Part shown: positions 15,724 through 20,265 of the stretch, one piece after another
Position numbering within the stretch: the stretch's first letter is position 1
How the letters are laid out: every line of letters starts with the position of its first letter
Assembly (NCBI GenBank): GCA_000004985.1
Contig: GG738847.1
Source: Naegleria gruberi
Lineage: Eukaryota
Reading direction: 5' to 3' (one strand)
DNA length: 64,000 nt
The notes under the pieces: model-generated
What the model saw: the letters and a program-made list of their open reading frames with translations, nothing else
The model's database searches: none
Told to the model about the DNA's origin: nothing
Translations under genes and position numbers: made by a program

Positions 15724-16233
15724 TTATATGTTTTGCGATGATGCAAGTTTAGAAGTTTCTTCGTTCAAAATACTTTGGATGAGCAATTCATCTTCATGAA
15801 CGTTATTGCTCATTATCGTTTGAGATGTAATAGTCTTAGATTCGAGTGTAGCATTATTTTGTGGTGTAAGAAGCATATCTTCTCCTTGGTACATATCCTC
15901 ATGAATTGTTTGTTCTTCGTAAACTTGTCTGAATTGATCCTTTTGTTTGTAGCAAGCCCAACGGAATATTTGTTGGTCCTTTCTCATTTGTTCATTGAGT
16001 TCTTTAACACAAGTTGGTGAGGCATCGAACAACATCATGACCCATCTTCCCTTGAAATGTTTTTCTCTGTGTCTATACATCGGATAGGCAAGAGGTAAAA
16101 TACCCATATTATCAAGACGACGGATTACTCCCTTATTTTCAAAAACAACTTGAGCATTTCTCTTCATGACTTGGGCGACTGTTGGTAGAGCAGCCTTTGG
16201 ATTCACGAGGTACACCAATTCGTACAATGGCAT
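15724..16233 (-). CDS. MRP17: mitochondrial ribosomal protein bS6m (Mrp17-like)
   Basis: The N-terminus (MPLYELVYLVNP...) and central block (EKHFKGRWVMMLFDASP) resemble the bS6/Mrp17 family (yeast MLYELIGLV... HFRAYHFLMLFDSS). Confidence 0.6.
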   Translation of the reverse strand: MPLYELVYLVNPKAALPTVAQVMKRNAQVVFENKGVIRRLDNMGILPLAYPMYRHREKHFKGRWVMMLFDASPTCVKELNEQMRKDQQIFRWACYKQKDQFRQVYEEQTIHEDMYQGEDMLLTPQNNATLESKTITSQTIMSNNVHEDELLIQSILNEETSKLASSQNI

Positions 16234-16456: not shown

Positions 16457-16527
16457 TCGGGTGTGGTATAGTGGTAGCATTCCAGACTGTCACTCTGGCG
16501 ACCCGGGTTCAATTCCCGGCACTCGAG
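16457..16527 (+). tRNA. tRNA-Asp (anticodon GTC)
   Basis: Folds as a cloverleaf. Acceptor TCGGGTG/CACTCGA with U1:A72 and a G4:U wobble, anticodon stem CCAGA/TCTGG, loop CTGTCAC (U33, GTC, A37) and T-arm CCGGGTTCAATTCCCGG. Discriminator is G73 and CCA is not encoded. U1:A72 and G73 match known yeast tRNA-Asp features. Confidence 0.85.
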
Positions 16528-16743: not shown

Positions 16744-17982
16744 TTACAACAAGTTACAAATAATCAAGGAAATCAAAACAAGCAAGAAGCTAATCAATGA
16801 TTGAGAGCTAGCACCGCTAGTGGCAGCCAAATAATTTGAATTTTCACTAGAACCACTTGAAGGATCCCAAATTACATTTTCAACTCTTTCAGTCAATGAA
16901 ACCCAGAAACGAGCAACAACAGCATTGGAAGCTTCAGACTTATCCTTGATAAATTGTTCATCAGAATTCAAACTACCTTCAATATTTCTGAATGGAGTGT
17001 AAATTAACTTGCCACGAGTAACAACAGTTGGTGAACTAGAAGAATATTTGGAAATAAACTTTTGGAAACTGAAGAATGGTTTTGGAAGAATTGCTTGATT
17101 GCCATCTAATTGAGTATTCAAATCATTATCAAATTGAGAAACAGCTTGATCATCATTGGCATCATCTGGCTTTTCAACAGCTGATGATTCTCTTGTTCCA
17201 GAGCTTGGCTTTAAGGTTTCATTTTCACCTGATGATTTTTCACGTCTTGAACCACGGAATGCAACAATTGTACCCAAAGCAATCAATGAATTAGATTGAG
17301 AATATTGAATATTAGCCAATTCGAAAGAAACCTTCAATGAGGATGGATTCAATACTTGAACAACACCAGCACGAGAGGCAAACTTTGAGCTATCAATTTG
17401 AACAGTGGCAGTTGAAATGACAGCACTCATTCTAACAGTACAGAAATTGGTAATATTAGTTTCAACCAAAGCATGATAAATATATGAATTATCACTGTCG
17501 TTGAGAAGCTTCTTTGATAAATCAACAATCTTCCATGTTTGTTCACGTAAATTGTAAATCTTTACAACAGTGTCATTACCTGGTTGATAACCTTCAACTC
17601 CACTTGTCTCTTGATATTCAATAATTCTATCGACACCAAATGCAGATCCAACTACAATGGCCAACTCACGTTCAATCTTGGTAATTGGTGTGACAATCTT
17701 GATAGCAGTCTTGGCCTTCATGGCAATGAGTGGAAATCTTTCGAGTGAGGCCAGAAATTCCATCTCTGAGAAGGAACCAACAGCAGTGGCATTGAGTCTG
17801 TCCAATGTACACAAGGCCTTGCTGGTAAACTTGATGGTCTTTTCGTTTCTGTCGACTTCAATCTTTCTACGGCAGAATTTGTTGGTTGGGAAGAGTTTTG
17901 GTGTAATGTCGAAGGAGGTTGATTGAGCTGAGAGGAGAGTGGCCAAACAGCTGAGAATTACAATGAGGAATAAGAGTTTCAT
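16744..17982 (-). CDS. GPI-anchored secreted / cell-surface protein
   Basis: N-terminal signal peptide (MKLLFLIVILSCLATLLSAQS), a Ser/Asn-rich body with many N-X-S/T sites, and a C-terminal omega-like region (ATSGASSQS) followed by a hydrophobic tail (LISFLLVLISLIICNLL). Confidence 0.6.
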   Translation of the reverse strand: MKLLFLIVILSCLATLLSAQSTSFDITPKLFPTNKFCRRKIEVDRNEKTIKFTSKALCTLDRLNATAVGSFSEMEFLASLERFPLIAMKAKTAIKIVTPITKIERELAIVVGSAFGVDRIIEYQETSGVEGYQPGNDTVVKIYNLREQTWKIVDLSKKLLNDSDNSYIYHALVETNITNFCTVRMSAVISTATVQIDSSKFASRAGVVQVLNPSSLKVSFELANIQYSQSNSLIALGTIVAFRGSRREKSSGENETLKPSSGTRESSAVEKPDDANDDQAVSQFDNDLNTQLDGNQAILPKPFFSFQKFISKYSSSSPTVVTRGKLIYTPFRNIEGSLNSDEQFIKDKSEASNAVVARFWVSLTERVENVIWDPSSGSSENSNYLAATSGASSQSLISFLLVLISLIICNLL

Positions 17983-18249: not shown

Positions 18250-19269
18250 TTAGCACAACATGCATTTTTCCTTTTTGTTTAGAACTGGAGCTTTGATAAG
18301 TTTCGAATAGATAAACGTCTTGACAATCAAATCTTCCAATTCTTCCAGTCCAACAAACTCTCTTGAAGATGTTGTCACATAGCTCACAGCACCCATCCGC
18401 TGAGATAGTTTCTTTCCATACGAATCATACTTTTTACACAAATAACTATTCCAATATTTTCCCAAATGAAAATCTCCTGGTTTTGAATAATCACAAATAT
18501 CAGATTTTGTTCCAACGACCAATACTGATCTGTTGTAATCCAAAAATGGTTGAATTTCTGGAAGAAATCTATCAGAAAAATCCTTCAAACACTTATTCAT
18601 CATTACTGGATTTGATATTGAATAGCACATTATAAAAATGTGACACTTGGATGGTGTATCATAAGAATAAGGAGTGTCTACTAATTGTAAACAATAACCT
18701 TCAATCCTCTTAATATCACACGAATTATAGTAACGGGGAACAGAAAAACCCTCTTCCGAATCATTGTATCTTTCATACCTAAGGTGAAGATAGTAACACA
18801 GAGTGGTCTTTCCAATACCATGTGGCCCAATGAAGCAACATCGAATTGGCTCTGATTCTTTCAGTAAATTTGCATATTCCTCCAATTTGAAATTCTCACA
18901 AAATGTCTCAAAGTTTTCAATTTCTTCCGAATATGAACTCCAAGTGTTTTTGAGTTTTTTAATTTTCTTACATTCTTTCAATTTATATGTTCGATCGACC
19001 GATTCCTTGGTTTCTCTATAAATTTTCATTAGAATTTCTCTAATATTCGTACTTTCTGCACGGAGTTTAATGGGTTCTTCTCTATTGAGCAACTTGCCAT
19101 GAATCGAAAGTTGACAGTCGAGTTGTGTTATTCTTCCTCGCCACATCCAATCACTATTTAAAAGATTGAACCAAATGGTATTGACCAACATAAGTTGGAG
19201 ATGTTCGGAAAATGAAAGAAATTTATCAACGATCGTGATGGTATCCAGTGGCAAGAGATTTAATGACAT
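18250..19269 (-). CDS. F-box-like N-terminal domain fused to a divergent Rho-family (pseudo)GTPase domain, polybasic-CMLC C-terminus
   Basis: The N-terminus LNLLPLDTITIVDKFLSFSEHLQLMLVNTIWFNLL fits the F-box consensus (LPxEIL..I...L....L.....V.K.W..L). Residues 140 onward align with Rho: P-loop GPHGIGKTT; effector FSVPRYYNS; Rho-type IFIMCYSISNPVMMNKCL..F...LPEIQPF; VLVVGTKSDI. Switch II is DTPYSYD instead of DTAGQE (A59P, G60Y, Q61S) and NKxD is TKSD. Ends KKEKCMLC. Confidence 0.6.
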   Translation of the reverse strand: MSLNLLPLDTITIVDKFLSFSEHLQLMLVNTIWFNLLNSDWMWRGRITQLDCQLSIHGKLLNREEPIKLRAESTNIREILMKIYRETKESVDRTYKLKECKKIKKLKNTWSSYSEEIENFETFCENFKLEEYANLLKESEPIRCCFIGPHGIGKTTLCYYLHLRYERYNDSEEGFSVPRYYNSCDIKRIEGYCLQLVDTPYSYDTPSKCHIFIMCYSISNPVMMNKCLKDFSDRFLPEIQPFLDYNRSVLVVGTKSDICDYSKPGDFHLGKYWNSYLCKKYDSYGKKLSQRMGAVSYVTTSSREFVGLEELEDLIVKTFIYSKLIKAPVLNKKEKCMLC

Positions 19270-19302: not shown

Positions 19303-19345
19303 AAAAAACAGTCCGATGAGACGGAATCGAACCGCCGACCACAGG
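19303..19345 (-). pseudogene. tRNA 3'-half fragment (T-arm plus 3' acceptor strand) followed by a T-run; no matching 5' half
   Basis: Minus-sense ...GGTCGGCGGTTCGATTCCGTCTCATCGGACTGTTTTTT. A canonical T-arm (GGCGG/TTCGATT/CCGTC), a 7-nt 3' acceptor strand and a T6 terminator are present. No complementary 5' acceptor strand, D-arm or anticodon stem lies within 100 nt upstream, and a 50-N gap starts about 125 bp away. Confidence 0.35.
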
Positions 19346-19471
19346 ATGACAGTTGTTCTTGCTACAGTCCACTTTTATTGTCAAGAAATCTGTAGGTAGA
19401 GAAGGAAGCCAGGTAAAAAAATAATGAAATGGAATAACAAGAACCCTTCAAAATATGCAACAAACACAATA

Positions 19472-19521
19472 NNNNNNNNNNNNNNNNNNNNNNNNNNNNN
19501 NNNNNNNNNNNNNNNNNNNNN
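19472..19521. other. assembly gap (50 N)
   Basis: Run of N. Confidence 1.
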
Positions 19522-19662: not shown

Positions 19663-20265
19663 ATGTCTCAAAACCTTCTCACGGCTGCCACTACCATGAA
19701 CAATCACGAAGAAGAGCTTGAAGTTCCAGGCTTTTCATGGATTATAGAATCGGAATTGGCTGGTATGAAATTTCCATCCCTTCCCGAACATTACAAAAAT
19801 TTAAATCATCATCACATTGGTTTGGTGATTTGTGTGAATGAGAGGGTAGCTTCCTTTGTTGAACAATTACCTCATTCAGAATATTTTAATTTAATTTCTA
19901 AAAAATTACAAAAAATAGAAAATTGTGAAGAATTTACTTATAATGTTGGAAAATTGAATATTGCTCATTTTCCTATTAATGATTATGGAGTTCCTAATAT
20001 GGAATTAATGAATGAAATGATAAAATTGGTAGAATATGTGAGAAAGGTGGATTCGAACAGGGGAATTGTTGTGCATTGCATGGCTGGACTTTCTAGGACT
20101 GGAATGATTCTGGCATGTTTGTTGGTGAGAGTATGGAAAATGACATTTGAGGAGTCAATCAAGTTGGTCAATCAGAAGAGAGGAAGAAATGGTAGAGGAG
20201 TAATGACTAGCAAGCAAGAAGCATTTGTGGAAGATTTTTCAAAGACTATTCCTAATATTCAATAA
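19663..20265 (+). CDS. dual-specificity protein phosphatase, DUSP23/VHZ-like
   Basis: CX5R active site VHCMAGLSRTGMILACLLV, plus N-terminal PGFSWIIESELAGMKFPSLPEHYKNL matching DUSP23 (PGFSWALPGRLAGLALPRLPAHYQFL). 200 aa. Confidence 0.75.
   Translation: MSQNLLTAATTMNNHEEELEVPGFSWIIESELAGMKFPSLPEHYKNLNHHHIGLVICVNERVASFVEQLPHSEYFNLISKKLQKIENCEEFTYNVGKLNIAHFPINDYGVPNMELMNEMIKLVEYVRKVDSNRGIVVHCMAGLSRTGMILACLLVRVWKMTFEESIKLVNQKRGRNGRGVMTSKQEAFVEDFSKTIPNIQ

What the first reader, a model, noticed from the sequence alone, without database searches (positions are those of the whole stretch)
18250..19269. F-box-like domain fused to a catalytically degenerate Rho-family GTPase
This single 339-aa ORF has a good F-box consensus at its N-terminus and a clearly Rho-like G domain at its C-terminus. 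The G domain carries the Rho-specific CYSISNP...LPEIQPF block and ends in a polybasic-Cys tail. Its switch II is DTPYSYD (no Gly60 or Gln61 equivalents) and G4 is TKSD instead of NKxD, so it is predicted to be a pseudoGTPase or locked-state GTPase. A Rho module fused to an SCF substrate-adaptor module parallels RhoBTB (Rho plus a Cul3 adaptor), but I do not know of a described F-box-Rho architecture. It could couple membrane targeting to ubiquitin ligase recruitment.
Basis: partly seen in the sequence, partly recalled or inferred. Interest (0 to 1): 0.65.

Follow-up and report, generated by a model that had tools for sequence, protein, structure and literature searches.

The report
Naegleria F-box–Rho protein lacking switch II
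This is a real Naegleria gruberi gene that joins a divergent F-box (a ubiquitin-ligase docking module) to a lipid-anchored Rho/Rac-like domain; this architecture is already published for Naegleria, and this copy differs in having lost its GTPase "switch II" through an 87-base deletion that also removed an intron.

Summary
The 339-aa ORF at 18250-19269(-) is real. It is identical to N. gruberi XP_002682426.1, annotated "rho family member".

- **G domain:** It is Rho/Rac-type by sequence and by predicted fold. It has a Rho-length insert and a conserved CaaX end.
- **F-box:** The N-terminus falls below Pfam's F-box thresholds. A profile-profile match, PDB hits and a predicted fold whose 41 PDB matches are, by their descriptions, all F-box proteins or Skp1/SCF complexes support it.
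- **Switch II:** It is truly missing. Compared with a paralogue that keeps DTPGQEDYDRLRPL, this copy lacks 87 nt, made up of a 57-nt intron plus 10 flanking codons.
- **Other motifs:** Gly12 and Thr35 equivalents are also replaced. TKSD is the normal Rac-type G4, not a defect.
- **Constraint:** The ORF is intact, all indels against the paralogue are in frame, and dN/dS is 0.44. A truncated sister copy has frameshifts. The gene is probably still constrained.
- **Novelty:** The novelty claim fails. Herman et al. 2021 report F-box fused to Rho, Rab, Ran and Gα domains in Naegleria. They list this gene as "Rac" but give it no F-box flag.

Verdict: a previously unflagged, switch-II-less member of a known lineage-specific family. 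Interest is modest.

The parts
18250..19269 (-). Complete single-exon CDS, 339 aa plus stop; equals N. gruberi XP_002682426.1
19135..19260 (-). Divergent F-box, aa 4-45 (LP at aa 6-7; predicted helices 8-17, 20-29, 31-37; conserved W33 and W43)
   Evidence: Pfam is sub-threshold. hhalign against Naegleria F-box segments gives P=8.6e-5, and 0 of 300 shuffles reach the score. The AF2 model has pLDDT 72, and all 41 Foldseek PDB hits are F-box/Skp1-complex entries.
18853..19134 (-). Linker, aa 46-139, predicted to be largely one long helix (aa 76-126) at low confidence
   Evidence: AF2. The linker aligns with the equivalent region of the distant full-length homologues P0023 and P0010.
18295..18852 (-). 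Rho/Rac-like G domain, aa 140-325
   Evidence: Pfam Ras. PDB phmmer top hits are TC10, Rac1, RhoU and RhoA. The Foldseek top 50 are all RhoA, Rac, Cdc42 or EhRho1.
18805..18828 (-). P-loop GPHGIGKT (GxxxxGKT retained; the Gly12 equivalent is His)
18727..18747 (-). Switch I region FSVPRYY. The Thr35 equivalent is Arg here and His in the paralogue.
   Evidence: alignment to Rac1
18658..18684 (-). Deletion scar LVDTP-YSYD. It lacks 87 nt that are present in the paralogue: 11 nt of exon, a 57-nt GT..AG intron and 19 nt of exon. This removes GQEDYDRLRP, i.e. the DxxG glycine, Gln61 and the start of helix alpha2.
18499..18510 (-). G4 motif TKSD, which is Rac-type (Rac1 has TKLD)
18415..18498 (-). 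Rho-insert-length segment between G4 and G5. The G4-to-G5 spacing is 46 aa, against 43 in Rac1 and 29 in H-Ras.
   Evidence: the AF2 confidence here is low
18364..18372 (-). G5 motif TSS (S301 is invariant in the family alignment)
18253..18279 (-). Short basic patch NKKEK followed by the CaaX box CMLC. The Cys is invariant across homologues.

Best explanation
The gene is a member of the Naegleria-specific family of F-box-Rho (Rac-like) proteins.

Shown here:
- It has a divergent F-box at aa 4-45, a helical linker of about 95 aa, a Rho-type G domain and a conserved CaaX box.
- The same end-to-end layout occurs in homologues that are only about 24% identical.
- In this copy an 87-nt genomic deletion removed a 57-nt intron plus 10 flanking codons (GQEDYDRLRP). 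This eliminated the DxxG glycine, the catalytic Gln61 equivalent and the start of the switch II helix.
- The Gly12 and Thr35 equivalents are also substituted.

Inferred:
- The protein is prenylated and sits on membranes.
- Its F-box docks it onto Skp1-Cul1.
- The Rho-like domain acts as the protein-binding (substrate-receptor or regulatory) module of an SCF ligase.
- The P-loop, TKxD and G5 survive while switch II and the hydrolysis residues are gone. The domain may therefore still hold a nucleotide but cannot cycle or hydrolyse. It would be a pseudoGTPase-type adaptor that does not depend on nucleotide state.
- It is probably still under selection and not yet a dead gene.
For: - **Identity and Rho class:**. 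Herman et al. list the gene as 'Rac'.
- **F-box:** Two Pfam F-box models are the only N-terminal hits, both at aa 5-44 (E 0.03-0.15). A four-sequence family profile hits the F-boxes of FBXW12, 21, 19 and 24 in the PDB (E 0.04-0.5). hhalign of the family N-terminus against 17 F-box segments of Naegleria GTPases gives P=8.6e-5 and score 22.5, while 300 column shuffles give mean 9.3 and maximum 16. Of those 17 segments, 14 pass Pfam F-box at E<=0.01. The AF2 model of aa 1-70 has pLDDT 72 and the F-box helix pattern. All 41 Foldseek PDB matches are, by their descriptions, F-box proteins or Skp1/SCF complexes (Skp2, Fbw7, beta-TrCP, FBXL17, AnkB-Skp1 and others). Most align about 40 residues at rmsd 1.5-2.4 A.
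- **Single gene:** The ORF is continuous. Homologues P0010 and P0023 align over aa 11-339 and 30-329.
- **Deletion:**
- **Constraint:** All indels against the paralogue are in frame. dN/dS is 0.435 (28 synonymous, 52 non-synonymous; p=0.001 against neutrality), and 0.225 for the C-terminal part of the G domain. A sister copy, L002, carries the same deletion but is truncated. It has 5 frameshifting indels and 14 substitutions, against 0 indels and 4 substitutions on the window branch.
- **Mechanism:** The idea of 'GTPase-dependent ubiquitination' is the one proposed for this family by Herman et al..
Against: - The Pfam F-box scores are below the gathering thresholds.
- The individual Foldseek and PDB E-values are above 0.01, because the domain is short.
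- AF2 used shallow alignments (7-19 sequences).
- There are no expression, Skp1-binding, nucleotide-binding or prenylation data.
- The pairwise dN/dS cannot be assigned to the window lineage alone. Only 4 substitutions are specific to the window branch (3 non-synonymous, 1 synonymous).
- dN/dS is 0.8 for the stretch from the P-loop to switch I.
- Losing 10 residues at switch II could destabilise the fold.
- The family shows birth-and-death turnover with several fragments and pseudogenes.
Confidence: 0.6

Rival explanations
1. The gene is a young, not yet disrupted pseudogene. The intron-spanning deletion destroyed the GTPase, and the copy is drifting towards loss as part of birth-and-death turnover in the expanded Naegleria Rho family.
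For: - Switch II is deleted, and Thr35 and Gly12 are substituted.
- A frameshifted, truncated copy with the same deletion exists as L002.
- Fragments of the family are embedded in the chimeric gene models XP_002668755 and XP_002672299.
- dN/dS is 0.8 for aa 140-200.
- Three of the 4 window-branch substitutions are non-synonymous.
- Herman et al. describe birth-and-death evolution in the related F-box-Rab clades.
Against: - The 1020-nt ORF is intact in a genome of about 35% GC.
- All four indels against the paralogue are multiples of three.
- Overall dN/dS is 0.435, which differs significantly from 1 (p=0.001).
- The window branch has far fewer changes than the pseudogene sister: 4 substitutions and 0 indels against 14 substitutions and 5 frameshifts.
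- Herman et al. did not flag the gene as a pseudogene.
Confidence: 0.25
2. The F-box does not make the protein a substrate receptor. Instead it serves mainly to couple the Rho-like protein itself to SCF for rapid turnover, as was suggested for the F-box of trypanosome TbFRP.
For: The TbFRP authors propose that the F-box is linked to rapid proteolysis of the GTPase (PMC3593210). F-box proteins are commonly auto-ubiquitinated (established knowledge).
Against: There is no direct evidence either way. The architecture, with an N-terminal F-box, a linker and a C-terminal interaction domain, is the canonical substrate-receptor layout.
Confidence: 0.1
3. The N-terminal 45 residues are an unrelated helical extension that only resembles an F-box by chance, so the protein is simply an atypical Rho with an N-terminal tail.
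For: The Pfam scores are below threshold. Herman et al. gave this gene and its paralogue no extra-domain flag.
Against: Independent methods agree on the same 40 residues. The shuffle control gives 0 of 300. All 41 of 41 structural hits are F-box entries.
Confidence: 0.05

Closest known systems
Naegleria F-box-Rac/Rho proteins (Herman et al. 2021, BMC Biol, Additional file 4 and Table S8)
   Same: Same species and same architecture: N-terminal F-box, linker, Rac-like G domain and CaaX. The gene is listed next to the flagged F-box 'Rac' entries. The N-terminus aligns to their F-boxes with hhalign P=8.6e-5.
   Different: This gene and its paralogue XP_002668220 were not flagged as F-box in Table S8. 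This copy alone lacks switch II because of the 87-nt deletion. It is only about 20-25% identical to the flagged members.
RhoBTB (Rho domain plus BTB Cul3 adaptor; metazoa, Dictyostelium, Naegleria)
   Same: An atypical, hydrolysis-deficient Rho domain is fused to a cullin-RING ligase adaptor module. The likely logic is to link Rho-type interactions to ubiquitination.
   Different: The adaptor here is an F-box (Skp1/Cul1) at the N-terminus, not tandem BTB domains (Cul3) at the C-terminus. There is no BTB Pfam hit. This protein has a CaaX box.
TbFRP (FYVE-F-box-Ras-like GTPase, Euglenozoa; PMC3593210)
   Same: An F-box lies upstream of a small GTPase domain in a discoban protist. The function of the F-box is unresolved.
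   Different: TbFRP has a FYVE domain and a Rab-like G domain and targets membranes through PI3P. The window protein has no FYVE domain, has a Rho-like G domain and has a CaaX box. The TbFRP authors found no orthologue in N. gruberi.
PseudoGTPases and GTPase-deficient Rho proteins (Rnd/RhoE, RhoH, RhoBTB)
   Same: Substitutions at the Gly12 and Gln61 equivalents predict no hydrolysis, so any regulation must come from something other than cycling.
   Different: Those proteins keep an intact switch II backbone. Here 10 residues of switch II are physically deleted.

Membership tests
F-box domain (Pfam PF00646 / PF12937) | Score above the Pfam gathering threshold | tested here: not met
   PF00646 scores 12.8-14.8 bits against 20.5, and PF12937 scores 12.3-14.0 against 24.3, at aa 5-44.
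F-box domain (Pfam PF00646 / PF12937) | Profile-level homology to bona fide F-boxes, including the LP motif and the conserved hydrophobic and Trp positions | tested here: met
   hhalign gives P=8.6e-5 over aa 4-45 against 17 Naegleria F-box segments, 14 of which pass Pfam. The score is 22.5 against a shuffle maximum of 16.
F-box domain (Pfam PF00646 / PF12937) | Fold of about 40 aa with three helices, superimposable on Skp1-bound F-boxes | tested here: met
   The AF2 model of aa 1-70 has pLDDT 72. All 41 Foldseek PDB matches are, by description, F-box proteins or Skp1/SCF complexes. Most align about 40 residues at rmsd 1.5-2.4 A, although the individual E-values are 0.3 or higher.
F-box domain (Pfam PF00646 / PF12937) | Binds Skp1 | not testable with these tools
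   No complex prediction or experiment was available.
Rho family of small GTPases | Ras-superfamily G domain | tested here: met
   Pfam Ras scores 24.7 bits against 21.6, E=2e-5.
Rho family of small GTPases | Closer to Rho/Rac/Cdc42 than to the other Ras subfamilies | tested here: met
   The top 50 PDB sequence hits are all Rho family, and the first non-Rho hit has E=0.024. The Foldseek top 50 are all Rho family. Herman et al. annotate the gene as 'Rac'.
Rho family of small GTPases | Rho insert between G4 and G5 | tested here: met
   The G4-to-G5 spacing is 46 aa, against 43 in Rac1 and 29 in H-Ras. The sequence of the insert is not conserved and the AF2 confidence there is low.
Rho family of small GTPases | Intact G1-G5 motifs and switch regions (Thr35, DxxG, Gln61) | tested here: not met
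   G1, G4 and G5 are present. Thr35 is replaced by Arg and Gly12 by His. The DxxGQ motif and 10 residues of switch II are deleted.
Rho family of small GTPases | C-terminal CaaX prenylation signal | tested here: met
   CMLC lies at the C-terminus and the Cys is invariant in the family alignments. Prenylation itself was not tested.
RhoBTB | Tandem BTB domains C-terminal to the Rho domain | tested here: not met
   There is no BTB hit in Pfam, and the protein ends 14 aa after the G domain.
TbFRP-type FYVE-F-box-GTPase | N-terminal FYVE domain and a Rab-like G domain | tested here: not met
   There is no FYVE hit, and the G domain is Rho-like.
PseudoGTPase | G-domain fold with loss of the residues needed for hydrolysis or switching | tested here: met
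   Established by sequence only. Nucleotide binding and hydrolysis cannot be tested here.

The most novel reading that the evidence does not exclude
A prenylated Rho-fold pseudoGTPase that has physically lost switch II is kept by selection as a membrane-anchored SCF substrate receptor that does not depend on nucleotide state. It targets Rho-pathway partners for ubiquitination. It arose in a single step, from an intron-spanning in-frame genomic deletion in a canonical F-box-Rac paralogue. That would be a natural example of converting a GTP-gated ligase adaptor into a constitutive one.
Probability: 0.25. Interest if true: 0.5.

Novelty: new member of a known kind. Interest (0 to 1): 0.3.

Why it matters
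F-box-GTPase fusions suggest that Naegleria wires small-GTPase signalling directly into SCF ubiquitin ligases. This idea has been published but has not been tested experimentally. This locus adds a member that earlier domain scans missed. Together with its canonical paralogue XP_002668220 it forms a natural matched pair, one with switch II and one without. That pair could be used to ask whether partner binding or ubiquitination by these proteins depends on nucleotide state. The locus is also a clear example of intron loss by an imprecise genomic deletion that kept the reading frame. Beyond that, the gene is one of more than 80 Rho-family genes in a family with rapid turnover.

Tried and rejected
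- **Exact-sequence look-ups:** Look-ups of the window protein, P0002 and P0003 in the contig collection found nothing. N. gruberi paralogue DNA was therefore unavailable. I used two ENA metagenome contigs from a closely related Naegleria instead.
- **Word-indexed searches:** The homologue searches found only N. gruberi paralogues. The exhaustive HMMER search found 18 hits, of which only two distant ones were full-length.
- **Structure prediction:** The full-length AF2 model left the N-terminus at pLDDT about 55, so I modelled aa 1-70 separately.
- **Hidden intron:** I considered whether a missed intron could restore switch II in the window gene. I rejected this because the coding sequence is contiguous and the 87 nt are simply absent.
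- **Two separate genes:** I considered whether the N-terminal part and the G domain are separate genes. I rejected this because the ORF is continuous and the layout is conserved in distant homologues.
- **L002 locus:** I considered whether L002 is the same locus as XP_002668755. I rejected this because the upstream genes are unrelated.
- **Upstream tRNA-like sequence:** Rfam and default ARAGORN found nothing there. Only a relaxed ARAGORN run calls a degenerate tRNA-Asp.
- **Literature:** A full-text search for F-box, Ras superfamily and Heterolobosea returned nothing, because the relevant text is in a supplement.

Full report
**What is at the coordinates**

The window is Naegleria gruberi DNA. 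The ORF at 18250-19269 on the minus strand encodes 339 aa and starts at the first start codon after an upstream stop. It is 100% identical to XP_002682426.1 / EFC49682.1, 'rho family member [Naegleria gruberi]', on a 941-kb scaffold. The gene lies among ordinary eukaryotic genes:
- a mitochondrial-type ribosomal protein S6;
- a secreted or GPI-like 412-aa protein with no Pfam hit;
- a dual-specificity phosphatase;
- a tRNA-Asp gene.

**The G domain**

- Pfam Ras matches aa 144-316 above its curated threshold (24.7 bits against 21.6, E=2e-5).
- Against PDB sequences, the best 50 hits are all Rho family. They include TC10 at 7e-5, Rac1 at 2e-4 to 8e-4, RhoU and RhoA. The first non-Rho hit has E=0.024.
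- An AlphaFold2 model (mean pLDDT 65; G-domain blocks mostly 65-90) retrieves only RhoA, Rac1/2/3, Cdc42 and EhRho1 among its top 50 Foldseek PDB matches.
- The G4-to-G5 spacing is 46 residues, against 43 in Rac1 and 29 in H-Ras. This fits a Rho insert.
- The C-terminal CaaX cysteine is invariant across all aligned relatives.

TKSD is not a degenerate G4, because Rac1 has TKLD at that position. The P-loop Gly12 equivalent is His (GPHGIGKT). The switch I Thr35 equivalent is Arg here and His in the paralogue.

**The F-box**

Pfam's two F-box models are the only N-terminal hits and cover exactly aa 5-44. They are below threshold, with E of 0.03-0.15 for this protein and 0.018 for the paralogue. 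I therefore tested the claim in three further ways.

1. A four-sequence profile of the N-terminal 140 aa of this subfamily was searched against PDB sequences. It returned seven hits, five of which are F-box proteins matched at their F-boxes (FBXW12, 21, 19, 24 and a relative; E 0.04-0.5).
2. I took 17 F-box segments from the corrected Naegleria GTPase sequences in Table S8 of Herman et al. 2021. Fourteen of them pass Pfam F-box at E<=0.01, the best at 1.4e-10.
   - hhalign of the window-family N-terminus against this alignment gives P=8.6e-5 and score 22.5. It aligns aa 4-45 with the LP motif and the terminal Trp in register.
   - Three hundred column shuffles gave a mean of 9.3, an sd of 2.2 and a maximum of 16.0. 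The reversed sequence scored 7.5.
3. AlphaFold2 on aa 1-70 with a 7-sequence alignment gave pLDDT 72 and helices at 8-17, 20-29, 31-37 and 40-60.
   - Foldseek against the PDB returned 41 matches. Every one is, by its description, an F-box protein or a Skp1/SCF complex. Examples are Skp2, Fbw7, beta-TrCP, FBXL17, FBXO31, Fbx4, KDM2A/B, SLY1, MAX2 and Legionella AnkB-Skp1.
   - Most align about 40 residues at rmsd 1.5-2.4 A, with probabilities up to 0.97. The individual E-values are 0.3 or higher, as expected for such a short domain.

Taken together these results support the F-box call. Skp1 binding itself remains untested.

**One gene, and a conserved layout**

The ORF is continuous. The exhaustive HMMER search found two distant relatives, P0010 and P0007/P0023, which are about 24% identical and come from metagenomes. 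They align over aa 11-339 and 30-329. Both have the same order of parts: an F-box-like N-terminus, a linker of about 90 aa, a Rho domain and a CaaX box. A Willaertia magna Kelch-F-box-Rac protein also appears among the hits.

**Origin of the aberrant switch II**

The closest paralogue is XP_002668220. Its gene model was corrected by Herman et al., and its counterpart lies on an ENA metagenome contig, L001. It reads LQLVDTPGQEDYDRLRPLSYDKPSK.

On L001 a 57-nt GTAAGT...CAG intron interrupts the Asp codon that follows GQE. The window gene reads LQLVDTP-YSYDTPSK. It lacks 87 contiguous nucleotides relative to L001: 11 nt of exon, the 57-nt intron and 19 nt of exon.

The distant homologues and all canonical Rho proteins keep this segment, so the window state is a derived deletion. 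It is an imprecise intron loss that stayed in frame. It removed the DxxG glycine, the catalytic Gln and the start of helix alpha2. In the AF2 model, strands beta3 (193-198) and beta4 (211-217) are joined by a short loop.

**Alive or decaying**

Evidence that the gene is still constrained:
- Window against spliced L001 gives dS=0.155, dN=0.067 and dN/dS=0.435. The counts are 28 synonymous and 52 non-synonymous changes, with binomial p=0.001 against neutrality.
- By region, dN/dS is 0.225 for aa 201-339, 0.8 for aa 140-200 and about 0.5 for the N-terminal part.
- All indels between the two genes are multiples of three.
- A second metagenome contig, L002, carries a copy with the same deletion that starts only at about aa 131. 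It has five frameshifting indels and a disrupted 3' end.
- With L001 as outgroup, the window branch has 4 substitutions and no indels. The L002 branch has 14 substitutions, some of them next to indels, and 5 frameshifts.

Evidence for turnover in the family:
- Two NCBI models contain C-terminal fragments of this subfamily fused to unrelated domains. XP_002668755 has DUF4116 plus the C-terminal half of the deletion type, at 97% identity. XP_002672299 has NHL/EGF domains plus the C-terminal half of the canonical type.

So the subfamily is turning over by duplication and decay, while the window copy behaves as if it is still constrained. With only four branch-specific substitutions, this is suggestive and not proven.

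**Comparison with what is known**

Herman et al. 2021 (PMC8296547, Additional file 4) report more than 80 Rho-family genes in N. gruberi. [quoted passage not shown]

Their Table S8 flags about a dozen 'Rac' entries as F-box, some also with Kelch or BTB domains. It lists XP_002682426.1 as 'Rac' with no pseudogene flag and no extra-domain flag. Even their flagged F-box-Rac proteins score only 18-21 bits in Pfam, which explains why this weaker one was missed.

[quoted passage not shown] RhoBTB is the Cul3 analogue. The architecture is therefore not new. What this analysis adds is the F-box assignment for this gene and its paralogue, and the mechanism and consequences of the switch II loss.

**Most likely mechanism**

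All steps here are inferred unless marked as shown. CaaX prenylation anchors the protein to membranes. The F-box binds Skp1-Cul1-Rbx1. The Rho-fold domain provides the interaction surface that selects partners, or it regulates the ligase.

It is shown by sequence that the Gly12, Thr35 and Gln61 equivalents and switch II are lost. From this I infer that the domain cannot hydrolyse GTP or undergo the canonical switch, so any binding would be independent of nucleotide state.

The rivals are a young pseudogene (about 0.25), an F-box used only for self-turnover (about 0.1) and a chance F-box resemblance (about 0.05).

**Verdict**

The gene is an unflagged, switch-II-less member of a published Naegleria-specific family. 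Interest is modest (0.3).

Noticed in passing
window 19311-19384 (-), immediately upstream of the ATG at 19269: A degenerate tRNA-Asp(GTC)-like remnant with an intact-looking T-arm (GGTTCGATTCC), followed by a T-run. Only a relaxed ARAGORN run calls it (with a 5-nt 'intron'); default ARAGORN and Rfam do not. It is probably a decayed tRNA gene or a tRNA-derived element.
   Followed up: partly
window 16457-16527 (+): A bona fide tRNA-Asp(GTC) gene (Rfam 57 bits, ARAGORN). It has the same anticodon as the degenerate remnant about 2.8 kb away.
   Followed up: yes
window 19472-19521 and 20807-60636: Two runs of N, 50 nt and 39,830 nt long. They are scaffold gaps. The second makes up 62% of the window and produces a spurious 13,307-aa 'ORF' in the mechanical ORF list.
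   Followed up: yes
window 16744-17982 (-): A 412-aa ORF with an N-terminal signal-peptide-like segment and a hydrophobic C-terminal end (GPI-anchor-like). It is rich in Ser and has no Pfam hit. It may be a lineage-specific surface protein.
   Followed up: no
window 19663-20265 (+) and 15724-16233 (-): The divergently oriented neighbour is a 200-aa dual-specificity phosphatase (DSPc / PTP-SAK, E about 1e-13). Downstream lies a mitochondrial-type ribosomal protein S6 (E=1e-21).
   Followed up: partly
N. gruberi proteins XP_002668755.1 (P0003) and XP_002672299.1 (P0022), outside the window: These NCBI gene models fuse C-terminal halves of this Rho subfamily to unrelated N-terminal parts (DUF4116 repeats; NHL and EGF repeats). 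They are probably gene-model chimeras built over dispersed gene fragments.
   Followed up: partly
L001 987-1043 and L002 2446-3241 (ENA metagenome ERZ929261 contigs): An environmental metagenome contains a Naegleria closely related to NEG-M. L001 holds the canonical paralogue with a 57-nt intron inside the switch II coding region. L002 holds a truncated, frameshifted copy of the deletion-bearing gene, next to two ORFs with no Pfam hits.
   Followed up: yes
Paralogue XP_002668220.1 (P0002), outside the window: The NCBI model stops at DTPGQEE because it reads into the intron. The downstream exon is called separately as a 115-aa ORF (P0005). Herman et al. had already corrected this model.
   Followed up: yes
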